The notes: generated from the sequence alone by a model not told the origin. A stretch of 64,000 nt of DNA from an uncultured Lachnospiraceae bacterium (GCA_947564645.1 CANOCU010000003.1:3934-67933); one strand, 5' to 3'; positions 14,796 through 41,350 are shown, counted from the first letter of the stretch. Numbers and translations are program-made.

Positions 14796-15524
14796 ATGCA
14801 TTCATCCTTAATTCGAACCATCAAAGCCGAAGGCCTGAAACTAAAGCGAAGCCCCGTGTGGCTGACCTTCCTTATCCTGCCCCTTATATCTGCCTTCTTC
14901 GGCACCGGCAATTACCTGGGGAATCAGGGAATCCTGCAAAACGAGTGGTTCAGCCTCTGGTCACAGCATTCCCTGTTTCTGTGCTTTTTCTTTATGCCTG
15001 CGCTGATCGGCACCGTCTGTTCCTACCTCTGGCGTCTGGAACACCTGCGGACCAACTGGAACGCCTTTCTGACCGCACCGGTGCCGCTGCTCTGCCTTTA
15101 TCTCGGCAAGCTCTTCCAGGCGGTAAAAGTCGTTATTCTGGGAAATATCTGGATCTTTATCCTGTATTTTCTGTGTGGAAAGCTGTGCCGTCTGGAGACG
15201 GACTTTCCGCCCCAGGCTCCAGAATGGTTTCTCTGCGGCATCCTGGGCGGCATCGTGATCTGCTGTCTGCAGCTTGCCCTCTCCATGGTGATCCGCTCCT
15301 TCGCGGTTCCCATCGGCATCGGCCTGGTAGGCGGCATCGGCGGTATGCTGATCGTCAACAAAGGAGCCGGGCTATTCTATCCTTACTCCTTATACAGCGT
15401 GGGAATGCGCGCCAATAATCCGCAGATGACGATTGACCTTAAGCTCTTTGCGGTTTCCTGCGTCTGCTATGCGGTGCTGTTCTGCGGCCTGTCTGTAATA
15501 GGGTTGCGGCGGCATGAGCAGTGA
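14796..15524 (+). CDS. Lantibiotic-immunity-type ABC permease (LanG-like)
   Basis: IKAEGLKLKRS, WRLEHLRTNW, about 6 TM, FYPYS. Start refined to MHSSL. Confidence 0.75.
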   Translation: MHSSLIRTIKAEGLKLKRSPVWLTFLILPLISAFFGTGNYLGNQGILQNEWFSLWSQHSLFLCFFFMPALIGTVCSYLWRLEHLRTNWNAFLTAPVPLLCLYLGKLFQAVKVVILGNIWIFILYFLCGKLCRLETDFPPQAPEWFLCGILGGIVICCLQLALSMVIRSFAVPIGIGLVGGIGGMLIVNKGAGLFYPYSLYSVGMRANNPQMTIDLKLFAVSCVCYAVLFCGLSVIGLRRHEQ

Positions 15525-15553
15525 CGAATCCTCTAAGCATATTTTACGGTAAC

Positions 15554-15600
15554 CTAAAAGAAAGCAGTCAATATGAAAGTTACTGGCCGCTTTCTTTTAG
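15554..15600. terminator. Bidirectional terminator-like inverted repeat
   Basis: CTAAAAGAAAGC...GCTTTCTTTTAG 12-bp arms between convergent genes. Confidence 0.65.
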
Positions 15601-15609
15601 GTACTAATC

Positions 15610-16287
15610 TTATGTACTGATATACGCATATAGTTCCGGATAAGTCTCTTTGTGATCCCTGATCAACCACCTCTTAAACGCTGCAAATGGCGAACTGTCT
15701 TGTAGACACTGCTTTATGAGACACCTGAAGTCCTCTTTTTCTTCCTTCTCAGCTTCCTGATACTCCCGAACATACTCTTTAAATTCAGCAAGTTCTTTTC
15801 TCAAAAGCCTCCGTAATATTGTGGCCTCCATTTTTTTCTGCGGCGTTGATCCATAATAAACTTCCTGCAGAAGTTTAACCGTATTTTGTGTTGCTGCCTC
15901 AAAATCCAGCATATCAAACGCTAATTCTTCATCCGATCCAAAATATCCTTTTTTTTGAAAAGCAATCTTCTCCTCGACATTCTCCTGCGTACAGTCAATA
16001 ATCGGCTCGTATTTATCAAGTTTCGTATTGTTGCAATGTCCACAGGCAAGAAAAAGATTGTTCCAGTCATACTTTAGTTCTGCATTCCCTCGATGTGGAA
16101 TTAAGTGCTCGATCTGATATAAAGTGATCTGTTTATTTTCACAAAGATAACATTTTCCATAGAACATCTCTCTTAATGCAGCATTTACTTCCGGTGTATT
16201 ATAGGATTGATGCCTTTCTCTTGCCTTTTGCAGTGAATCGATTGCTTTTTGTGATTTTTCCGTAGTTCTCCGAGTGATTTTTATCAT
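15610..16287 (-). CDS. HNH endonuclease, PtuB/Septu-like
   Basis: KCYLCE...QIEHLIP...DWNNLFLACGHCNNTK; overlaps the stop of the upstream ATPase by 4 bp. Confidence 0.8.
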   Translation of the reverse strand: MIKITRRTTEKSQKAIDSLQKARERHQSYNTPEVNAALREMFYGKCYLCENKQITLYQIEHLIPHRGNAELKYDWNNLFLACGHCNNTKLDKYEPIIDCTQENVEEKIAFQKKGYFGSDEELAFDMLDFEAATQNTVKLLQEVYYGSTPQKKMEATILRRLLRKELAEFKEYVREYQEAEKEEKEDFRCLIKQCLQDSSPFAAFKRWLIRDHKETYPELYAYIST

Positions 16288-17524
16288 AAAGGCTTTCCTT
16301 CTATGTCATGAAACTTATCGGCTGCCTCCTGCGCCAACCCCTGCGGGATACTCCGCAATTCGCTCCGGAGCTTCGCTCTCTCTGCACGCTCCCGTTCCGT
16401 CAGATCTTTTCTCTCCTTTAATACCTGATACCGGTCAATCTTGTCCTTCAATTCATCCGAATAATCATCTGCTCCAAAATACTCTTCCGCAAGCCCCTCT
16501 GATGAATACAGTGATAAATTCTCCAGTTCAATACACCGCTCTAAATCAAACACCTTCGCATTGGAAATAGAATTCAGGATATACGGTGAATGGGTCGTAA
16601 CAATAAACTGAATCCGCGGGAAAAATTTAGTCAAAAAAGGCATGATCTTCTTCTGCAGTTCAATATGCAGATGTGTTTCCACTTCATCGATCAGCGCAAT
16701 ACCTTCTATATCATATTGGCTGAGCCTGTCTCCCAAAAGCCAGTTCCTGTCCATCCTCAAGATCAGATCCGACACAATATGAATCACAGACGAATATCCG
16801 TCTGAAAGTTCATCAAAGCCAAACGGCAGCCTGCCGGATTCATGGATCTTAAAATCATATTCTTTATAATCATATTCAAGGGTTACTGTGTCGTCATCCA
16901 ATAAGATACGCAGCGCATCCACAAATCGGTCAAACCATGCCTGAATCCTGTCTACGATCACTGTATCGCCTTCGTTGCGCGCATACGCCTGTTGTGTTTT
17001 GAGATGTACCATATATCTATGCAGGGATTCCCCGGGATCGGAATCAACTTCATAAACATCGTTCAGTTTGACATCCTCCGCTCCCTTTGAACGGGTAATC
17101 TGTGTTTTTCTGTTCGCTGCAAAATAAGCTGTTATAAAGTCACCATGCTTATACATATATTCCAGTTCCGCATAGTTACTGAAGGAAACCTGTATACCAT
17201 TTGCGTAGGCTCTCACATACAGCATCAAATTCTCATACTGCTGCTCAAGTTGTGCTCTTTTTTCTATTGTACATTCACAACTTAATCTCTTTTCTACTTT
17301 CCGCAATGTGGGAATTTTCTCTTCCACCAAAGTCTTGAAATGTCCATCATTTATAGCCCGCAGCCAATTACGTAACCCAAAAAGCAAAGACGTCTTCCCA
17401 GACCCATTCTTACCCGTAATGATCAAATGCTGCCTCGTATCGGGATTCAGTGAAATCGTGAAATCGTGATATCAGATAAATGTCTTAATTGTTGAATAGC
17501 AATCTCCGTAATATAATGTTCCAT
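16284..17524 (-). pseudogene. PtuA/Septu-like ABC-type AAA ATPase frameshifted by an 8-bp duplication near the 5' end
   Basis: Walker A GKNGSGKT, LSDGY signature, IDEVETHLH, FIVTTHSP. Likely true start is ATG 17524 (GAGG RBS). Removing one GTGAAATC copy joins MEHYITEIAIQQLRHLSDITISLNPDTRQH in frame to the 380-aa ORF, giving 410 aa. Confidence 0.85.
17450..17473. repeat. 8-bp tandem repeat GTGAAATC x2 + GTGATATC
   Basis: Read directly; it causes the ptuA-like frameshift. Confidence 0.95.
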
Positions 17525-17554
17525 TCTTACCTCTTCCCGAAATCCTTTGCACTT

Positions 17555-17583
17555 ATTGTATGCTACATTACATTGAGATACAA
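17555..17583 (-). promoter_or_regulatory. Putative sigma-A promoter of the Septu-like operon
   Basis: TTGTAT-17 bp-TACAAT, 30 bp upstream of ATG 17524. Confidence 0.6.
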
Positions 17584-17587
17584 GCCT

Positions 17588-17818
17588 TTATTTCTGCCGG
17601 TCCAACAGTTCCCGAAGCGCCTCGTCTCCGATACTCACCCAGGCGTCCTCCTCCTCGGCGTTCAGACCCAGATACTCCCGGAGCGTCACCGGCTCGTCGC
17701 TAAAACCCCACTCCTGGCTGTAATCGTCAATCTCCTCGAATGCGACCTCTCCTGCCAAATACTTCTCCTTAAACTTCTTCTCCATAAATCGCTTCCATCC
17801 CTTCCCGCAGATCTGCAT
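17588..17818 (-). CDS. Small acidic hypothetical protein
   Basis: 76-aa ORF coupled to the panE stop (TAATG overlap); protein-like composition. Confidence 0.65.
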   Translation of the reverse strand: MQICGKGWKRFMEKKFKEKYLAGEVAFEEIDDYSQEWGFSDEPVTLREYLGLNAEEEDAWVSIGDEALRELLDRQK

Positions 17819-18995: not shown

Positions 18996-20828
18996 TCACG
19001 CCGACTGATAATACCCCGCCTGGGCCTCCCACAGCTTCTGATACTCGCCGCCTAGCTGAAGCAGCTGTTCATGGCTGCCCTCCTCCAACAAGACGCCGTC
19101 TTTCAGCACCAGGATCCTGTCACAAAAGCAGCAGCTTGAAAGACGATGGGATATGAAGATCATCGTCTTTTCCCCCAAAAGCGTGTTGGTCTTCTCATAC
19201 AGCTGCGCCTCCGACACCGGATCAAGAGCGGCCGAAGGTTCATCCATGACAAAGACAGGCGCATCCTTATACAGCGCCTTCGCGATCGCCAGCTTCTGCG
19301 CCTCGCCGCCGGAGAGCAGGATTCCCTGCTCGTCGTACTCCCGGTACAGATAAGAATCCATACCGGCATACATTTCCCTGACCCGCTGCGCCATCCCCAG
19401 ATCCTCCAGCGCTTTCCAAACCGCCTCTTCCCTCTTTGCGCCGCTGCCTGCGATGTTCTGCCAGAGCCGGAAGGAAAACAGCTTGAAATCCTGGAAGACC
19501 ACGGACAGCAGCCGCCAGTACTCTTTTATGTCATACTCCTGAATGTCAACCCCGTTTAAACGGATCACGCCTTTCTCCGGCCGGTACAGCCGCAGCAGAA
19601 GCCGTATGCAGGTGGTCTTGCCGGAACCGTTCTGCCCCACCATGGCAATATGGTCGCCCTGCGAGACCCGGAAGCTCACATCCTGAAGCGTCCACGCTTC
19701 CGTCCCCGGATACCGGAAATACACATGCTCGAAGGAAAGCTCCACCGACGCTGACGCCGGCAGCACTCTTTTCCTGCCGCCCCGGGCCTCTTCCGGTTCC
19801 AAGTCCAGGAATTCGTAATGCTGCCGCAGAAACGGCGCATTTCCCCGCAGATCCGCGATACCCGCCGCCACCCGGGTAAGCCCGGTAAAAAACTGCGCCA
19901 CCGCGCCGGAATACTTCACGATATTCCCTACGCTGATCAGCTTATGGTAAGCGTTCACACCCACATACAGGCAGGCAATCCCGCTCAAAAATGTATTGAC
20001 CACGGAGTTTGCCGCCTTGAAACTCCCCTCGTCTTTCCCGATGCCTTTTATAAAACCACGGTTGGCCCTCTGCACCTTCCCAAACTCTTCCACGATCAGT
20101 TCACGCTCGTCGAAAATCCGCACTTCCTTCCCATATTTATAATTCTGAAAAACATTCTGCCTGTAAAATCCGTAAAGGCGGTTCTGGGCCGTCAGCTTTC
20201 CGAACCGGGCAAAACGCTGACCGTTGTGCCGTTCCCCGTTTTTGACCGTAAGCAGTACGCCCCCGGCCGCCAACACCAAAAAGCCGCCAAACATAAAGAA
20301 TGTTTCCGGCGCACCGCTCCCTGCGGCCAGCTTCTGTGCCGCAAACCGCGCAAGATACACAAGCGCCGCCGTCACGCCAAACAGGCCGGCCAGCACGTCT
20401 CTCGTATACCGGATCAGTTTGTCAAAAGGATCGCCGTGCTGAAACCGGCCCCGTTTCAGACTGGCAGACAGCTCCTGTCCCCTGCCGCTCTCCAGAAGCT
20501 GATAGTCCATCGTCGTCATCTTTTCCAGCTGCTTTTTCATCTGCTCCACGTAAAGCCGCTGCCCGGCCTTTTCCACATAACAGCCGAGAATATGTCCTGC
20601 CGCTTCCGCCGCCAGAACCCCAAGCGACAGCCACAATGCCTGCAGCAGAACCTGCGCTTCCCCGTCGCCCCTGTACAGTCCGTCCACCACGGCCGCCGAG
20701 AAATGGAGCACGATAAATGGCCGCACTGCCAGCAGGAAATTCTCCCCCGCCAGTGCCGGGAACAGCCATGGAGATACCTCATGGAAACTATGGAACGTCT
20801 TTTTGAAAAGATCTCTGTCAAATCTCAT
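18996..20828 (-). CDS. ABC exporter, fused permease and ATPase
   Basis: N-terminal TM domain, GQNGSGKT, LSGGEAQK, VMDEPSAALDP, ISHRL. Confidence 0.9.
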   Translation of the reverse strand: MRFDRDLFKKTFHSFHEVSPWLFPALAGENFLLAVRPFIVLHFSAAVVDGLYRGDGEAQVLLQALWLSLGVLAAEAAGHILGCYVEKAGQRLYVEQMKKQLEKMTTMDYQLLESGRGQELSASLKRGRFQHGDPFDKLIRYTRDVLAGLFGVTAALVYLARFAAQKLAAGSGAPETFFMFGGFLVLAAGGVLLTVKNGERHNGQRFARFGKLTAQNRLYGFYRQNVFQNYKYGKEVRIFDERELIVEEFGKVQRANRGFIKGIGKDEGSFKAANSVVNTFLSGIACLYVGVNAYHKLISVGNIVKYSGAVAQFFTGLTRVAAGIADLRGNAPFLRQHYEFLDLEPEEARGGRKRVLPASASVELSFEHVYFRYPGTEAWTLQDVSFRVSQGDHIAMVGQNGSGKTTCIRLLLRLYRPEKGVIRLNGVDIQEYDIKEYWRLLSVVFQDFKLFSFRLWQNIAGSGAKREEAVWKALEDLGMAQRVREMYAGMDSYLYREYDEQGILLSGGEAQKLAIAKALYKDAPVFVMDEPSAALDPVSEAQLYEKTNTLLGEKTMIFISHRLSSCCFCDRILVLKDGVLLEEGSHEQLLQLGGEYQKLWEAQAGYYQSA

Positions 20829-22610
20829 CTCGTCCGCCCTCCGTATAATACCGGCTCTGTACGTTGAACATCTCCCAATAGCTCCCCTGCTTCGCCATCA
20901 ATTCCTCATGGGTGCCCTGCTCCGCGATCCGGCCGTCGTCCAGCAGGATGATCCGGTCGCAGAAGCTGGTGCTGGCAAGGCGGTGGGAAATGAAGAAAGA
21001 GGTCACGCCCTGCGTCATCTCACTGTATTTCCGGTAAATATCATTCTCCGCGATCGGATCAAGGGCTGCCGTCGGTTCGTCCAGGATCAGCAGGCTGCCG
21101 CCTTTATAGAGTGCCTTGGCAAGCATCGTCTTCTGCTGCTCGCCTCCCGACAGCTCCACAGCGTCTTCCCTGGCCGACCGTTGCAGGCAGGTGTCCGTCC
21201 CTGCAGGCAGTTTCCGCACCCTCTCACCAATCCCCGCCTGTTCCAGACTTAACATTACCCTCTGCATATCCGTTTTAGCCCGGATATGGGAAGACACATT
21301 CTCCACCATGCTCACCGGCAAAAGCTGGATATCCTGAAACACCACCGCCAGCCCGGCGAAATAAGCCTCGTCACTGTAATCTGTGATGTCCTTTCCGTCC
21401 AAAAGGATCCTGCCGCGACACGGCCGGTACAGCCCGGAAAGCAGCTTCACCAGCGTCGTCTTGCCGGCGCCGTTTTGGCCCACGATGGCCAGCTTCTCCC
21501 CCGCCCTGACCGTAAGCGTGATGTCGCGCAGGGTGTCCTCCTGTGCGCCTTCATAGCAAAAACTTACATGCTCGAAAGTCAGAGACGGCGCGTCTTCATG
21601 GTTTATCTCTTCCTCTCTCTTTTTCGACGTCTGCCCGTCGTCCCCCAGATCCAGCCACGCAAAATAGTCGTCCAGATAAAGCCCCAGACGTTTTAATTCC
21701 CCGGCATCCCCGATCAGCCCCCGCATCCAGACGGACAGCCCGGCCACCATGCCTGTCATTAGTACCAGATCCCCAATCGCGATCCGCCCGGCGACCGCCA
21801 GATGGATCAGGTAAAAATAAGTGACAAAGCTTCTGATAAACGCCAGCAGGCTCTCCCCGCTGCACACCAGCGCCTTTACGTGGGCGATCCTGTCCGTGCT
21901 CCTTGTCCGGCGTTCCATACTGCTCCGGTACAGTCCGGAAAACAGACCCGCCATGTCGTAAATCCGAAGCTCTCTTGCCGCCTGCAGGGACTGCCCCTCA
22001 TTTTCCAGATAATTCATCTTCCTGTCGCAGTCCACAAGGGTTTCCTTCTGCCGCTGCTCGCATCGCCGAAGCAGCACGGTAGCCAGATAGCCGCCGCAGG
22101 TCGTCATCGTCACCACTGCCAGGATCGCCGGGTCACACCTGCCGATGGTCAGCCCGTAGAACAGAAGCCCGCACAGGTTTACCAGGAAAGAAACGCCCCG
22201 CGTCACCACAGACTGTCCGAAGGCATATACCGCATGCAGCGCCCGCTGCCTGACCTGCTGCCCTGCTGCCCTGCCGCCCCTTCCACATTCGCATATGCCG
22301 TGGTCAGAGTTTTCTCATCCATGGGCGCCAACAGGCTGTGTACCAACAGCTTATTCTCCCACTCGGCAGTGGCCGCCGCCCACTCCTTCATGGAATTGAC
22401 TCCCATCTACAGTAAAAAAATGCTGCCAACCTCCGCCGCATACCGGTAGAGGGGATCCTGTCTCTCGATCCCTGTCACTAGCGTCCGCGTCAAAAAGATC
22501 TGCAGCCATGGTAAGAATACCTGTAACGGAAGCTGCACGGCCGAGAGCACAAGCAGCTTCCTGTTGTCGTTCCATATGGTTTGAAGAATGAATTTTATTT
22601 TTCTGCTCAT
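20818..22610 (-). pseudogene. ABC exporter (permease and ATPase) disrupted by an in-frame TAG and an 8-bp duplication frameshift
   Basis: Three consecutive ORF pieces. TAG at 22407-22409 is in frame with the next piece. CTGCTGCC is duplicated at 22255-22270; removing one copy and reading through the stop gives about 594 aa with GQNGAGKT and LSGGEQQK. Confidence 0.85.
22255..22278. repeat. 8-bp tandem repeat CTGCTGCC x2 + CTGCCGCC
   Basis: Read directly; it causes the frameshift in the ABC gene. Confidence 0.95.
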
Positions 22611-22662
22611 TTTGATACTGGATCCTATTCATAAATTGATATCGTGCACTCAAAGCTCTTTC

Positions 22663-37600: not shown

Positions 37601-38738
37601 GCTGGTATGCGATATCCTCCGAGAGATCCACCGCGATATACGGTTCCGTCTGCCCGGCGATGCCGCCCACATCCTTCCGGCCATATACCGTGCCGTTATT
37701 TTCACAGGCATATACATAGCCGGACTGCCGTCCCACGATACCACCCGTGTTGTAGCCCACATGTTCATAGCCGACGGTGCCGCTGTTGCTGCAGTACTGT
37801 ATGATCCCGGTTGAAAGCCCGGCAATGCCGCCGGAATCAATGGTATTGTTGATCGCCGAAGCTTTATCCGGTTTCCCGTCGCTGCTCTCCGTCTCCAGAA
37901 GGCCCGACGCATACTGCTCCAGATTGATATCTTCCAGAGACCTGGCCTTGTCTTCATTGGAAACGTTCACATCCGCTTTATTGACACAGCCGGCGATATT
38001 TCCCGTATTTTCACCGACAATGCCGCCTGTATAGTGAGCGCCCCTGACCGTGCCGTCAGCCGTACAGTCGATCAGGATCCCGCTCTGTTCGTTAAAGCCC
38101 GTGATGCCGCCCACATAATCGCTGCCCTCCACCACGCCTTTATAGTCGCAGCTTATGATGATACCGCTGTTATCTCCCACAATACCGCCCACTACCATGG
38201 ACTTGCCAGAAGGGCTCACATTGCCCTGCACCTTAAGATTGGCGATCACGGCAGACTGCTGGGTATAGCAGAACAGCCCTGTATAAGACAGGGAATCCCT
38301 GACCACCAGGCCGCTGACCGTATGCCCCTGACCGTCAAAATACCCGCCGAACGTCGGAATCGACACGAAATCACTGCCCGAAAGATCGATGTCCTTTGTC
38401 AGATAGACCTTCTTGTTGATCGACCAGGTATCCAGCCAGCAGTCGCGGGAGAACTGCTTCATGTCCTCTGCGGAGTCCAGATAGATCTCCTCCCACTCCG
38501 TGTCCTCGTCATCATAGTCGGCTATGGTATGGTTGGCCTCCTCCACCGTCGTGATCTCCTCAGCCTGCTCCCCTGCAGGTTCCTGTGCCGGATCCTCCTG
38601 CTCCCCTTTTCCTGCTGCCTTATCCGGAGTCACTTCCCCGGCTGTCACACTCATCGCCGGCATCACTGCCAGTATCCCTGCCAAAACAAGGGAAATCACT
38701 CTCTTACCACATATCTTTATCCGTATCTGCTTACGCAT
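34674..38738 (-). CDS. Large surface or membrane protein with GLUG-type repeats
   Basis: Signal peptide, repeated YVGGI(A/V)G.N motifs at both ends, central helical and acidic low-complexity region, C-terminal TM plus basic tail. Confidence 0.75.
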   Translation of the reverse strand: MRKQIRIKICGKRVISLVLAGILAVMPAMSVTAGEVTPDKAAGKGEQEDPAQEPAGEQAEEITTVEEANHTIADYDDEDTEWEEIYLDSAEDMKQFSRDCWLDTWSINKKVYLTKDIDLSGSDFVSIPTFGGYFDGQGHTVSGLVVRDSLSYTGLFCYTQQSAVIANLKVQGNVSPSGKSMVVGGIVGDNSGIIISCDYKGVVEGSDYVGGITGFNEQSGILIDCTADGTVRGAHYTGGIVGENTGNIAGCVNKADVNVSNEDKARSLEDINLEQYASGLLETESSDGKPDKASAINNTIDSGGIAGLSTGIIQYCSNSGTVGYEHVGYNTGGIVGRQSGYVYACENNGTVYGRKDVGGIAGQTEPYIAVDLSEDIAYQLSENIDKLHDLTGEMLNDAGTESDTVSARLTVIRDFVDKALNDTGFLADRTVEWTDGMVSSANDLMGRVDYIMDETGRNGGFIDQTRNAAGNVRDAAAQLGNTVEALDIYQYMTEEEKARYEEARAWMENASRQYAEDYAEALEAYRNYYIDKVRSENGNYTRSTAFSLYVNTGIEGAEHGRDETAADPDGADYGIANNNAGAGSSGNGDKGGMTGDGAGSDGNDSTGSGTESDSTDNVTDEEGIDGDNGDKNADSTGSSDSSDTFGSSNPADSRSVSEKDLRPLFNDVVRADWTWDANKGDYRNYIGMNGWVHYSKDANGLETTTPFPQNDGEQGELDRQLLSDVAKEMSDPVNAARIETDVRSYADEKYMAAHPASPGYEQDMRDYLQTMSSIVLTAGEKMSEEARARLQSAVGSVEEAMGNLESAGGEVKSLFDTVNGMPDLQMPQLGSDYRSRVGSLNANLQGLSENMGHLNEEMSSTNDVMLADLSKINDQFSMIMRLYTDAIDGVLDMDYSTVYEDNSQEDAESSTDATIADCTNAGTVRGDLNVSGIAGTMAIEYDFDLEGDVTGIENARLNSTFLTKCVLRHNINDGNVTAQKSYAGGIAGLQEMGTILRCENYGRIDSIAGNYVGGIAGQSLSNITNGYAKCTVSGEEYVAGIAGSGSGMEHCCAMVRVQDASAFYGAIAGDVDSSGTLTGNYFVSDEIAGIDRISYSGKAEPVSYEELLETEGLPGRFRMMSVVFYADEEEVKRLQCPYKSDVSSKLYPDIPAREGFYADWDIREIPGILYDEDVTAEYVRYLTTLASAQTRENGQSVLLVDGMFKQEAEFLVDGGDIAQDGDANVETGIDDTAIPLKNVTEHWQITIPEDESEQHQLRYQAPLGQTEGVALYVKRNGTWQQADTKLMGIYHLFTVEDTEAEIAVCIQDSRLKEYLLYGIPAALVVVVVLVLCVRKSNKRKKDRKEQNDKTRKNV

Positions 38739-41241
38739 CGGCTTCCACCTCCCTGCCCTCCAATTCCGGCGACACAGCCGCCGTCATATTCCGGTATTCC
38801 TCCTCCGTCAGCTGCGTCACATCACCCGCTTCCACATAAGCGCTCACATTACCCCGTACAATGGCATTCATGGTTCCGGTCACCGTTCCCTCGATGCGGC
38901 CGCGCACGAGACCGTCCACCTTGACCAGACCCGTGGCATTCTTCGTGCGGATCGGCATATTCATGACAAAAGCCGTCTTCTCTATGATCGTATCGCCCAC
39001 CAGCAGGATCTGTGGCAGCACGAACATTGTGATAAAGATAGAGATCAGCGTTCCCCGGCCCAGGCACTTACCGATCCCGAAGATCGCCACATCCGAAGTC
39101 AGCTTCCCGATCAGCACGCCGGACACCGCCAGCATCGTCCCCGAAGTGACGATGGTCGGAAAGGACAGATTCATAGTGTCCATAATGGACTGCCGCCGCC
39201 CCATGCTCTTACGCAGCTCCGTATACCGGCTGGCAATGACGATCGCGTAATCGATATTGGCGCCCATCTGAATCGAGCTGACGATCAGATACCCCATGAA
39301 GAAAAGATTGTCGTGGGCAATGGCCGGCACGGAGAAGTTGATCCAGATACTGCCCTGGATGACTGCGATCAAAAGCACCGGCATTCCAGCCGATTTAAAG
39401 GTAAACAGTAATACCACTAGCACCACAAGGATGGACACCACATTTACCACGATGTTATCTCTGGCAAAAGTCTTCTGTAAATCGTACTGACTCACCGACT
39501 CACCGCACACGAGCACACCGCCGTCGTAATAGTGCCCGGCGATCTCATGCATTTTATCCAAAAAGGCAAAAGTCTCTTCACTCTCCTCCGGCAGCGTCAG
39601 GTACACCAGCATACGGCTGTAATTCTCACCCTGCAGCTGATTCTTCGCAAAGGTCATCTGCTTATATGCGTCATCCAGCGTCTCCTGCAGTTCCTCCTCC
39701 AGTGTCACATAGCCTTCCTCCACCTCGTCATAGACGAACAGGAACATCTCGATCAAAGGCACCTGATAATCCGCCAGTCCATTGACCACTTTCGCATAGT
39801 CCTCATCATTGACCGCGTAAGCCGCATAAACAAGTTCCGCCACCTCATAGTCCAGATCGATCAGCTCCGAAAACTGCCGGGGCGTCAGCTTATCCGTCAG
39901 ATGATAGCCATCCAGCGCCTCAATATTCGCAAGCCCCATGCTGTAATCCACCTCCGGACAGGCATCCAGATCCTGCAAAAGCGCCTTTTCCTTCTCATAA
40001 TCCCCTGCCGGCACGATCAGCGCTACCATGTTGGAATCCCCGAAATTATCTTCCTGCATTTCCTCCGCTTTCTGTACGCTGTTCTGCAGCGGCGGTGTGA
40101 CCGTACTGTAGCCAAATACATAAGGGCAGTTCTTGGATACCATATACGCCGCAATGATTGCCACCAGAAAGAGCGGCGCCACGACATAGCGGGACACATA
40201 GGCAAATTTGCCGACGATCGGGATATCCGGAATGAAATTCTTATGCTTCGTCTTTTCCATCAGATTGGAAAAAAGCATGATAACGCCCGGCATCAGCAGG
40301 AATACCGCACACAGGCTTAAGATGATCGCCTTGATCAGCACGATCCCCATATCCGGCCCCATCTTATACTGCATAAAAGTCATGGCAATCAGACCGCCGA
40401 TCGTGGTAAGCGAACTGCCCGCGATCTCCGGGATTGCCTTGCTGAGCGCGATGATCACCGCTTCCCTGGCCGGCAGCGATGCATGTTCCTCTTTATAACG
40501 ATTTAAAAGAATGACCGCATAGTCCACCGACAATGCCAGCTGCAGCACGATGGTGACCGAGTTCGACACGAAAGAGATCGTTCCAAACAGGAAATTCGTG
40601 CCCATATTGATGATCGCCGCCGACAGGAACGTGATCAGAAGGACCGGAATCTCCGCATAAGCCTGCGTTGTCAAGAGCAGTACCGATACCACCACAATGG
40701 CGACCAGTACCGTGATCGTGTTCATCTCCTGTCCGATCAGTTCCGACTGCGTATCCCCCAGGCTGGTGGTCAGATAATAATCGCAGCCCTCCAGACGCTC
40801 CTTCACGGCATTAAGCGCCTCCAGACAGGCGTCCTCCTTTTCATCATAGTCAAAAGTCACATTATAATAAGCCGAACCGTTGGTATAATGCTCCGGCGTA
40901 TCGTCAAAATCTACCGAAAAGACCCCCGGCGACTGCTCTAACCGCTCACAGATCTCCTCCGCCTGCCCGTAAGAAACGTTCGCCACCATCACATTGCAGG
41001 TGCCGTATGTAATAAACTCCTCCTCCATCAGATCCAGTCCCTGCCTGGTCTCCGTGGTTCCCGGCAGATAATGGGCCATGGAATTCTCCACCCCGACCCA
41101 GTTCCTGGAGATGGCCGAAAAAATAATCAGGAGTCCGAAGAGCAGGAAAAAGAGATTTCTCTTATCTACAATAAACCCGCATATCTTCAGCATCGCCTGA
41201 TTATCGTTCTTGTTCGTATTCAATTCTTTCTCCATCTGCAA
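38731..41241 (-). CDS. MMPL/RND-family transporter
   Basis: Two MMPL repeats with LALSVDYAVILL and GANIDYAIVI; stop overlaps the start of the GLUG gene. Confidence 0.87.
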   Translation of the reverse strand: MQMEKELNTNKNDNQAMLKICGFIVDKRNLFFLLFGLLIIFSAISRNWVGVENSMAHYLPGTTETRQGLDLMEEEFITYGTCNVMVANVSYGQAEEICERLEQSPGVFSVDFDDTPEHYTNGSAYYNVTFDYDEKEDACLEALNAVKERLEGCDYYLTTSLGDTQSELIGQEMNTITVLVAIVVVSVLLLTTQAYAEIPVLLITFLSAAIINMGTNFLFGTISFVSNSVTIVLQLALSVDYAVILLNRYKEEHASLPAREAVIIALSKAIPEIAGSSLTTIGGLIAMTFMQYKMGPDMGIVLIKAIILSLCAVFLLMPGVIMLFSNLMEKTKHKNFIPDIPIVGKFAYVSRYVVAPLFLVAIIAAYMVSKNCPYVFGYSTVTPPLQNSVQKAEEMQEDNFGDSNMVALIVPAGDYEKEKALLQDLDACPEVDYSMGLANIEALDGYHLTDKLTPRQFSELIDLDYEVAELVYAAYAVNDEDYAKVVNGLADYQVPLIEMFLFVYDEVEEGYVTLEEELQETLDDAYKQMTFAKNQLQGENYSRMLVYLTLPEESEETFAFLDKMHEIAGHYYDGGVLVCGESVSQYDLQKTFARDNIVVNVVSILVVLVVLLFTFKSAGMPVLLIAVIQGSIWINFSVPAIAHDNLFFMGYLIVSSIQMGANIDYAIVIASRYTELRKSMGRRQSIMDTMNLSFPTIVTSGTMLAVSGVLIGKLTSDVAIFGIGKCLGRGTLISIFITMFVLPQILLVGDTIIEKTAFVMNMPIRTKNATGLVKVDGLVRGRIEGTVTGTMNAIVRGNVSAYVEAGDVTQLTEEEYRNMTAAVSPELEGREVEADA

Positions 41242-41350
41242 GCGCCTCCTTCACTTGTAGTAAACAGCATTATACGTCTCTGCTTCCGGTTCCTGCTAAA
41301 GTCCTAAGCTGGGGCAATAAGCCAAAGCTTCCTGCAGGATCGAATTCGGG

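What the first reader, a model, noticed from the sequence alone, without database searches (positions are those of the whole stretch)
15610..17583. Septu-like antiphage pair switched off by an 8-bp tandem duplication: possible reversible contingency locus
Seen: an AT-richer ATPase + HNH pair with its own promoter is inserted among GC-rich genes. From the likely true start (17524) translation stops after 25 aa because GTGAAATC is duplicated. Deleting one copy restores a 410-aa PtuA-like protein, and no other lesion is visible in either gene. The ancestral site was already an imperfect tandem (GTGAAATC-GTGATATC), which favours slipped-strand gain or loss. A fallback TTG start (17426, GAGG 6 nt upstream) could give a protein lacking the first 30 aa. 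No retron RT is present in the window, so it looks like stand-alone Septu.
Basis: partly seen in the sequence, partly recalled or inferred. Interest (0 to 1): 0.65.

Follow-up and report, generated by a model that had tools for sequence, protein, structure and literature searches.

The report
Septu defence pair broken by frameshift
A two-gene anti-phage system (Septu) in a mouse-gut bacterium is knocked out by a real, inherited 8-base duplication, and the evidence points to ordinary gene decay in one lineage, not a reversible on/off switch.

Summary
On the minus strand, ptuA (ATG 17524) stops after 25 codons because GTGAAATC is doubled at 17450-17465. Removing one copy gives a 410-aa protein that matches Septu PtuA end to end (PADLOC 1.2e-118). 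The downstream gene is PtuB (4.4e-63).

The duplication is not an assembly error. Contigs from 12 independent public gut metagenome runs carry it. Strains of the same species at the same locus carry the single-copy, intact allele.

The contingency-switch reading is not supported:
- The two alleles separate cleanly by lineage. Every duplication-bearing contig lies in one clade (at most 0.1% divergence, three sublineages). Every single-copy contig sits on a different haplotype.
- No revertant and no mixed sample was seen, although contigs cannot show minor alleles.
- The broken locus keeps decaying: PtuA G345E and PtuB R111Q at near-invariant positions, PtuB E175K in one sublineage, and a PtuB Q13* nonsense mutation in one sample.
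- A second 8-bp duplication of the same type arose 5 kb away in an already dead ABC-exporter gene. Slippage at imperfect 8-mer tandems therefore looks like a general mutational process here.

The fallback TTG product lacks two strongly conserved core β-strands.

Verdict: a known system that became an ordinary pseudogene. Interest is low.

The parts
16284..17524 (-). ptuA, the Septu ABC-type ATPase gene, frameshifted. 410 codons once one 8-mer is removed.
   Evidence: Repaired translation: PADLOC PtuA PDLC00268, 1.2e-118, residues 1-406 on profile 1-400/411. Pfam AAA_21, AAA_15, SMC_N. PDB sequence hits are PtuA chains (8ee4, 9kjx and others) plus one weak SMC3 hit. The top 50 Foldseek hits are all PtuA chains.
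17447..17524 (-). Remaining 25-codon N-terminal reading frame plus its TGA stop
   Evidence: Translation MEHYITEIAIQQLRHLSDITISRFH*
17450..17465 (.). Perfect tandem GTGAAATC GTGAAATC. The 8-bp duplication causes the frameshift.
   Evidence: Reported as 'left out 8' at 17450 in X12-X19. Seen as an 8-nt gap in L001/L002.
17466..17473 (.). Imperfect third unit GTGATATC (7 of 8). It is present in the ancestral single-copy allele and is the likely slippage partner.
16284..17426 (-). 380-codon ORF from fallback TTG (GAGG 6 nt upstream). This is the product recorded in public collections.
   Evidence: The exact sequence is held by NCBI/ENA as P0131. It still scores 5.7e-112 on the PADLOC PtuA model. 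It starts at L31, inside β3, and lacks β1-β2.
16482..16484 (-). PtuA codon 345, GAG (Glu), where relatives have Gly
   Evidence: Homologs: G 112, A 5, S 3 of 120. The single-copy alleles P0001 and P0134 have G. 16483 T>C in X17-X19. Shared by duplication-lineage contigs.
15610..16287 (-). ptuB, the Septu HNH nuclease gene. The ORF is intact in the window (225 aa).
   Evidence: PADLOC PtuB PDLC00331, 4.4e-63, residues 1-219 on profile 1-215/222. Pfam HNH 2.8e-06. CxxC...H...N...CxxC motifs are visible in the translation.
15955..15957 (-). PtuB codon 111, CAA (Gln), where 31 of 31 homologs and single-copy strains of the same species have Arg (CGA). The change creates an A8 run at 15949-15956.
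15552..15602 (.). Hairpin (22-nt arms, 86% complementary, 7-nt loop) between the convergent ptuB and ABC2-membrane genes. Likely a bidirectional terminator.
   Evidence: inverted repeat I2. Not called by the terminator scan.
17555..17583 (-). Weak, 8 of 12 consensus positions.
   Evidence: Sequence. Below the threshold of the scan. An RNA-run contig spans 16831-17735 across the intergenic region, so read-through from the upstream genes is equally possible.

Best explanation
This is a stand-alone Septu defence operon (ptuA ABC-ATPase and ptuB HNH nuclease). It was acquired horizontally at the ApbA/ABC-transporter locus of a mouse-gut Lachnospiraceae-like bacterium.

In one lineage, replication slippage at a pre-existing imperfect tandem (GATATCAC-GATTTCAC on the coding strand) copied one 8-mer again. 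That shifted the ptuA frame after codon 22. Full-length PtuA is no longer made. At most, a 380-aa fragment without the first two β-strands of the ATPase core is produced from TTG 17426.

Published work shows that Septu defence needs both the PtuA Walker motifs and the PtuB HNH motif, and that PtuA and PtuB act as one complex. The system is therefore most likely off in this lineage.

The allele has since been inherited clonally and spread through laboratory mouse and rat colonies. The operon is now drifting as a pseudogene.

- Shown: the lesion, its reality, its lineage distribution, the further mutations, and the family assignment.
- Inferred: the slippage mechanism, the loss of function, and relaxed selection.
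For: Family: PADLOC, Pfam, PDB and fold matches.

Acquired island: GC dip. Empty syntenic site in L048, which reads ApbA - small ORF - ABC2 membrane genes.

The lesion is real and inherited: the 2-copy allele is read in contigs of X1-X8, X10 and L055-L057, from at least 4 coded studies including rat. The 31-mer index also finds it in X24-X30.

Intact allele at the same locus in the same species: L001/L002 (98.2% nt identity over 8.1 kb; ptuA differs by 3 nt plus the 8-mer) and X12-X19.

Strict lineage association:
- 2-copy contigs differ from the window by at most 2 SNPs in the 2.6 kb laid.
- Every 1-copy contig has at least 5 extra SNPs in the 1 kb laid.

The duplication predates a split into three sublineages:
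- a: window, X7, X10.
- b: X1-X6, with 11 SNPs and 1 indel in 20 kb.
- c: L055-L057, with 3-7 SNPs in the 5.0-7.1 kb compared.

Further decay:
- PtuA G345E and PtuB R111Q sit at near-invariant positions.
- Changes inside ptuAB after the duplication are F46L, E175K (in the conserved VREY motif) and Q13* in L056. That is 3 replacement or nonsense changes and 0 synonymous.

General mutational process: a second derived 8-bp tandem duplication sits at 22254, again next to a 7-of-8 copy. It lies in an ABC-exporter gene already killed by a CAG>TAG nonsense change.

Parallel erosion of this Septu in relatives:
- L053: 52-aa in-frame deletion in ptuA and loss of ptuB.
- L042: deletion fusing ptuA and ptuB remnants.
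- L045 and L046: remnants only.

N-terminus: 119 of 120 homologs start at residue 1, and residues 1-30 are highly conserved. They form β1 (5-13) and β2 (16-22) ahead of the P-loop.

Requirement for both activities: PMC13096335. PtuAB complex: PMC12819146.
Against: - Only assembled contigs were available. A minor single-copy subpopulation (below roughly 20-30%) inside duplication-bearing samples would be invisible.
- The 380-aa product may be translated by reinitiation 21 nt after the upstream stop. Its activity is untested.
- The counts behind 'relaxed selection' are small (3 changes after the duplication). The order of G345E and R111Q relative to the duplication is unknown.
- ptuB is still an intact ORF in most duplication-lineage samples.
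- RNA-run fragments of the lineage exist (X40), so the locus is not silent.
Confidence: 0.8

Rival explanations
1. Reversible contingency (phase-variable) locus. The 8-mer tract gains and loses a unit often enough that populations hold both ON and OFF cells, and phage pressure selects revertants.
For: - A two-copy perfect tandem can lose a unit by slippage more readily than a random frameshift can revert. It would fall in the 'mutable' class, 1e-7 to 1e-5 per division, by analogy with Table 1 of PMC4235727.
- The ancestral imperfect tandem exists.
- Both alleles occur in the species.
- ptuB is mostly still intact, and RNA-run fragments of the lineage are present.
Against: - The alleles follow lineage with no homoplasy in 22 contig observations.
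- No revertant was found on the E345/Q111 haplotype in 12 samples spanning three sublineages.
- No contig break or alternative contig appears at the site, whereas a co-occurring SNP at 17379 did break X8's contigs.
- The gain step from one copy has no repeat tract to drive it.
- The tract is below the hypermutable class.
- Extra damaging changes accumulate, including PtuB Q13*.
- The same kind of duplication hit a dead gene nearby.
Confidence: 0.1
2. The system is still active. Ribosomes that stop at TGA 17447 reinitiate at TTG 17426, and the 380-aa PtuA lacking residues 1-30 works with PtuB.
For: - GAGG lies 6 nt upstream of TTG, and the TTG is 21 nt after the stop.
- The product keeps Walker A, Walker B, the H-loop and the C-terminal helices, and scores 5.7e-112 on the PtuA model.
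Against: - Residues 1-30 are among the most conserved in 120 homologs, and none of the 119 complete ones starts later.
- In the model they form β1-β2 of the core sheet next to the P-loop, with pLDDT 83-89.
- The product would begin 4 residues before the Walker A glycine.
- The lineage shows further unconstrained changes.
Confidence: 0.07
3. Assembly or sequencing artefact in the source genome.
For: Short tandem repeats are occasional error sites.
Against: The same 16-nt tandem is assembled independently in at least 12 runs from several studies and two host species, at depths of 5-16x. The exact 380-aa product is on record from separate assemblies.
Confidence: 0.01

Closest known systems
Septu (stand-alone PtuA/PtuB; E. 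coli PtuAB structures 8EE4/8EE7/8EEA; Septu Ec-B88)
   Same: - Two co-oriented overlapping genes.
- PtuA is an ABC-type ATPase with Walker A GKNGSGKT, Walker B LIDE and H-loop TTHSP.
- PtuB is a zinc-finger HNH nuclease.
- Both give full-length matches to PADLOC Septu models. The fold matches PtuA chains.
- No reverse transcriptase is nearby.
   Different: - Only about 15-19% sequence identity to the solved E. coli proteins.
- It belongs to a gut-Firmicutes subfamily (PDLC00268/PDLC00331) with no experimental work that I found.
- In this window ptuA is frameshifted.
Type I-A retron effectors PtuA/PtuB (retron Ec78/Eco7, Ec83)
   Same: Homologous ATPase and HNH pair. These are the best PDB sequence and fold hits.
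   Different: - No RT gene in the roughly 30 kb annotated around the pair, and no Rfam RNA match anywhere in the window.
- PtuA is 410 aa against about 550 aa, so it lacks the N-terminal extension that contacts the RT (PMC12819146).
- NCBIfam retron PtuA and PtuB models score far below cut-off: 108.8 vs 500 and 29.3 vs 150 bits.
SSR-driven contingency loci (for example phase-variable restriction-modification genes of Haemophilus, Neisseria and Campylobacter)
   Same: A frameshift caused by a change in the copy number of a short tandem repeat inside the 5' part of a defence gene.
   Different: - Known loci have long tracts (more than 7 G, more than 9 tetranucleotide units, 3 or more pentamers) and switch at 1e-5 to 1e-2 per division (PMC4235727).
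- In known loci, both states occur within clones.
- Here there are 2 perfect units, one evolutionary origin, no revertants and continuing decay.

Membership tests
Septu (stand-alone PtuAB) | PtuA: ABC/SMC-like ATPase recognised by Septu PtuA profiles over its full length | tested here: met
   Repaired protein: PDLC00268, 1.2e-118, 1-406 on 1-400/411. AAA_21, AAA_15, SMC_N. Foldseek top 50 hits are all PtuA.
Septu (stand-alone PtuAB) | PtuB: HNH nuclease recognised by Septu PtuB profiles | tested here: met
   PDLC00331, 4.4e-63, full length. Pfam HNH 2.8e-06, above cut-off.
Septu (stand-alone PtuAB) | The two genes are adjacent and co-oriented in one operon | tested here: met
   The ptuA stop overlaps the ptuB ATG by 4 nt. 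Same arrangement in L001, L003 and L055.
Septu (stand-alone PtuAB) | Both reading frames intact | tested here: not met
   ptuA is frameshifted after codon 22 in the window. It is intact in strains of the same species L001 and X12-X19.
Septu (stand-alone PtuAB) | Protects against phage; needs the ATPase and HNH motifs | not testable with these tools
   Shown for E. coli Septu Ec-B88 (PMC13096335). No experiment exists for this subfamily.
Type I-A retron | Reverse transcriptase gene and msr/msd ncRNA next to ptuAB | tested here: not met
   Neighbouring genes are ApbA, a 76-aa ORF, ABC transporters and a two-component system. No Rfam match in the 64 kb. Retron PtuA and PtuB NCBIfam models are below cut-off. 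ORFs beyond about 15 kb were not all scanned.
Contingency / phase-variable locus | Hypermutable repeat tract (many units) | tested here: not met
   Two perfect 8-mers plus one 7-of-8 copy. By the classes of PMC4235727 Table 1 this is 'mutable' at most.
Contingency / phase-variable locus | Repeated independent switching: both states scattered across closely related genomes | tested here: not met
   All 2-copy contigs fall in one clade. All 1-copy contigs are on other haplotypes.
Contingency / phase-variable locus | Both states coexist within a clonal population or sample | not testable with these tools
   Only Logan contigs were available, which drop minor variants. No raw-read run was offered. 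No alternative contig was seen at the site.
Contingency / phase-variable locus | Gene otherwise kept functional in the OFF state (purifying selection continues) | tested here: not met
   G345E and R111Q at near-invariant sites, E175K, and Q13* in L056. Zero synonymous changes among the 3 changes after the duplication. The numbers are small.

The most novel reading that the evidence does not exclude
The frameshifted allele may be a standing reserve, not a dead gene. Loss of one 8-mer at perhaps 1e-7 to 1e-5 per division would keep rare Septu-ON cells in every large gut population. The OFF state would spread in phage-poor laboratory colonies because Septu is costly, and ON revertants would sweep when a sensitive phage appears. 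That would be an unprogrammed but effective bet-hedging switch for a defence system, created by a single tandem duplication.
Probability: 0.1. Interest if true: 0.5.

Novelty: already known. Interest (0 to 1): 0.2.

Why it matters
There are two modest practical points.

1. The broken gene is stored in public collections as a 380-aa protein and still scores 5.7e-112 on the PADLOC PtuA model. An HMM-based defence census would probably count this dead Septu as complete. Frameshift-aware checks are needed.

2. The species offers natural near-isogenic Septu-intact and Septu-broken lineages in laboratory rodents. These could be used to measure the in-vivo cost and benefit of Septu.

The locus also gives a clean example of how defence islands erode. 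Within one species group it appears as an empty site, an intact operon, a frameshift, a nonsense mutation, an in-frame deletion, and remnants.

Tried and rejected
- **Raw reads for allele counts.** Three run searches returned only Logan contigs. Within-sample allele fractions could not be measured.
- **Island borders.** No flanking direct repeats or target-site duplication were found, so the insertion mechanism is unknown.
- **Species identity.** The GTDB species-representative scan found no genome with this exact Septu. The best hits were 74-79% identical, in mouse Lachnospiraceae and Acetatifactor MAGs.
- **Position of G345 in the model.** The AlphaFold model has pLDDT below 50 across 334-352, so the structural role of G345 could not be judged.
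- **Programmed ribosomal frameshifting.** I considered it and rejected it. An 8-nt insertion needs a +1 or -2 shift, no slippery motif sits at the site, and strains of the same species simply lack the insert.
- **P0001 identity.** I first read it as 100% identical to the repaired protein. It differs at 2 residues, A88T and E345G.

Full report
**1. The observation**

Read on the minus strand, an ORF starts at ATG 17524 with AAGAGG 5 nt upstream. It runs MEHYITEIAIQQLRHLSDITISRFH and stops at TGA 17449-17447. The + strand at 17450-17473 reads GTGAAATC GTGAAATC GTGATATC. Removing one perfect unit gives a single 410-codon frame that ends at 16284 and overlaps the next gene's ATG (16287) by 4 nt. 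TTG 17426, with GAGG 6 nt upstream, opens the 380-codon ORF that gene callers report. GC falls to 0.38-0.44 across 15600-17600, against 0.53-0.59 on both sides.

A perfect 8+8 tandem is not improbable in itself: the window has four, against 1.1 +/- 1.0 in shuffles. The case therefore rests on comparison with relatives.

**2. What the genes are**

- The repaired protein matches the PADLOC Septu PtuA model PDLC00268 end to end (1.2e-118). The downstream 225-aa protein matches PtuB model PDLC00331 (4.4e-63).
- Pfam gives AAA_21, AAA_15 and SMC_N for the first protein and HNH for the second.
- Twelve of the 13 PDB sequence hits are PtuA chains of Septu (8ee4) and type I-A retrons. The last is a weak SMC3 hit.
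- An AlphaFold model (pLDDT 77.6) has PtuA chains as all of its top 50 Foldseek hits.
- The retron-specific NCBIfam models fall far below cut-off. The protein is 410 aa, not about 550 aa, so it lacks the N-terminal extension that binds the RT in retron PtuA (PMC12819146).
- The neighbouring genes are ApbA, a 76-aa ORF, ABC transporters, a two-component system, CTP synthase, FtsH, UvrC and an Mrp antiporter. Rfam finds nothing in the 64 kb.

This is a stand-alone Septu.

Published work on E. coli Septu shows three things. PtuA and PtuB form one large complex. Its DNA-nicking activity falls as ATP rises. One system cleaves tRNA-Tyr on infection, and there Walker A/B or HNH mutations abolish defence (PMC12819146, PMC13096335).

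**3. It is an acquired island**

- L048 is a syntenic relative (72-82% nt identity). It has ApbA, then the small ORF, then the convergent ABC2-membrane genes directly, with about 55 nt between them and no Septu.
- L003 is a closer species (ApbA 86% nt identity). It has a 77%-identical Septu at the same place.
- No flanking repeats mark the borders.

**4. The duplication is real, inherited, and confined to one clade**

Contigs assembled independently from public gut metagenomes were laid on the window.

- **Two copies:** X1-X8 and X10 (coded studies P1-P4, mouse and rat) and L055-L057, with no gap. The k-mer index adds X24-X30, including a further study.
- **One copy:** L001 and L002 (SRR11450179 and SRR11450186) at the same locus, at 98.2% identity over 8.1 kb. 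In these, ptuA differs from the window by 3 nt plus the 8-mer. X12-X19 are also single-copy.

The alleles follow haplotype without exception. Two-copy contigs differ from the window by at most 2 SNPs in the 2.6 kb laid. Every single-copy contig carries at least five further SNPs in the 1 kb laid.

The two-copy clade has itself split into three sublineages, and all keep the duplication:
- a: window, X7, X10.
- b: X1-X6, 11 SNPs and 1 indel in 20 kb.
- c: L055-L057, 3-7 SNPs in the 5.0-7.1 kb compared.

No contig break or alternative contig appears at the site. By contrast, a co-occurring SNP at 17379 did split X8's contigs. Contigs cannot reveal minor alleles and no raw-read run was available. 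A low-frequency revertant subpopulation is therefore not excluded.

**5. The locus is decaying**

'No other lesion' does not hold.

- The duplication clade has Glu at PtuA 345. Among 120 homologs that position is G in 112, A in 5 and S in 3, and single-copy strains of the same species have G.
- It has Gln at PtuB 111, where 31 of 31 homologs and the single-copy strains have Arg.
- After the duplication, sublineage b gained PtuA F46L. Sublineage c gained PtuB E175K in the conserved VREY motif. One sample (L056) gained PtuB Q13*. That is three replacement or nonsense changes and no synonymous change.

The numbers are small, but they point towards relaxed constraint.

Relatives show the same erosion:
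- L053 has a 52-aa in-frame deletion in ptuA and has lost ptuB after about 64 nt.
- The GTDB representative L042 has a deletion fusing ptuA and ptuB remnants.
- L045 and L046 keep only fragments.

**6. Mechanism of the lesion**

The ancestral coding strand reads GATATCAC GATTTCAC, a 7-of-8 tandem. If the nascent GATTTCAC slips back onto the first unit and the second unit is copied again, the result is exactly the observed GATATCAC GATTTCAC GATTTCAC. This is inferred, not shown.

The process is not special to this gene. At 22254 the window, X7 and X10 carry a second derived 8-bp tandem duplication (CCTGCTGC x2, followed by the 7-of-8 copy CCTGCCGC). Sublineage b and the outgroup X16 lack it. 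It lies in an ABC-exporter gene that the whole clade had already lost to a CAG>TAG change at 22409-22407. A duplication of the same kind in a dead gene argues for neutral slippage, not a selected switch.

**7. The fallback start**

TTG 17426 lies 21 nt after the upstream stop, so reinitiation is plausible. The product would still be called PtuA by HMMs (5.7e-112). However, it starts at L31, and 119 of 120 homologs start at residue 1. M1, H3, I5, I8, I10, L13-S17, I19, I21, L23, N24, R28 and Q29 are each conserved in at least 93% of homologs. In the model, residues 5-13 and 16-22 are β1 and β2 of the ATPase core, immediately before β3 and the P-loop. A working protein is unlikely.

**8. Comparison with contingency loci**

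Known SSR switches have long tracts and switch at 1e-5 to 1e-2 per division. Two copies of a short unit are classed as 'mutable' at 1e-7 to 1e-5, and a single copy with an imperfect neighbour is near background (PMC4235727, Table 1).

Here the OFF-to-ON step may be somewhat elevated, but the ON-to-OFF step is an ordinary rare event. Of the four defining features, three were tested: a hypermutable tract, recurrent switching, and continued constraint in the OFF state. None is met. The fourth, mixed populations, could not be tested.

**9. Verdict**

This is a known defence system (Septu) carrying a genuine, clonally inherited frameshift that behaves as an ordinary pseudogene. The reversible-switch idea is not supported, but it is not strictly excluded at low revertant frequencies.

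Interest is low. The useful by-products are a caution for HMM-based defence censuses and a natural ON/OFF strain pair for in-vivo work.

Noticed in passing
window 22254-22277 and 22407-22409 (minus-strand ABC exporter gene, about 20818-22612): A second 8-bp tandem duplication (CCTGCTGC x2, then the 7-of-8 copy CCTGCCGC). It is present in the window, X7 and X10 but absent from X1, X3, X6 and the outgroup X16. The same gene has an in-frame TAG where X13 and X16 read CAG. The exporter is therefore a pseudogene in the whole ptuA-duplication clade and was later hit by the same type of slippage.
   Followed up: yes
window 15949-15956 (ptuB codons 111-113): The R111Q change (CGA>CAA) lengthens an A7 run to A8 inside ptuB. 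Run X18, a single-copy ptuA lineage, shows a 1-nt deletion in this run at about 6.5x depth. If real, that would be an independent ptuB frameshift.
   Followed up: partly
L056 4176 (= window 16251), SRR27143730: ptuB Q13* (CAA>TAA) in one sample of the duplication clade. The gene caller there starts ptuB 40 codons late (185 aa).
   Followed up: yes
L053 8001-9137 (ERR12319725) and L054: A lineage 93% identical in nucleotide sequence has ptuA with a 52-aa in-frame deletion between two GLA-coding repeats (residues 341-392). ptuB is cut off after about 64 nt, followed by a LytTR response-regulator gene.
   Followed up: partly
L042 10001-10945 (Acetatifactor sp. MGBC129547); L045; L046: Species representatives that carry only remnants of this Septu subfamily. 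L042 has a 668-nt deletion joining ptuA to the 3' part of ptuB. Three of about 44 informative loci are degraded.
   Followed up: partly
L048 6988-9078: Empty site in a syntenic relative: ApbA, a 97-aa ORF, then the ABC2-membrane genes with no Septu. In L003 (ApbA 86% nt identity) the same site holds a 77%-identical Septu, so the site has been occupied for a long time or is a hotspot.
   Followed up: partly
window 17634-17737 (inside the 76-aa ORF 17588-17818): Short stretches of this small ORF (17634-17676 and 17702-17737) also match several other contigs with unrelated flanks in many runs. A conserved segment seems to recur in other genomic contexts or organisms. The ORF has no Pfam match.
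   Followed up: no
window 15300-17735 in RNA-labelled runs X19, X39, X40: RNA-library contigs cover ptuA, ptuB and the upstream intergenic region. X19 is the single-copy lineage. X40, a rat gut run, carries the duplication-clade SNP 17379C. X39 shows a 23-nt deletion at 16254 at about 3x depth. This suggests transcription, possibly by read-through from the ApbA operon, but DNA carry-over cannot be excluded.
   Followed up: partly
window 39489-39504: A perfect 8-bp tandem (GACTCACC x2) inside an 839-codon stop-to-stop frame on the minus strand (38731-41250). Removing one copy breaks the frame, so this tandem is part of the functional reading frame or arose by chance.
   Followed up: partly
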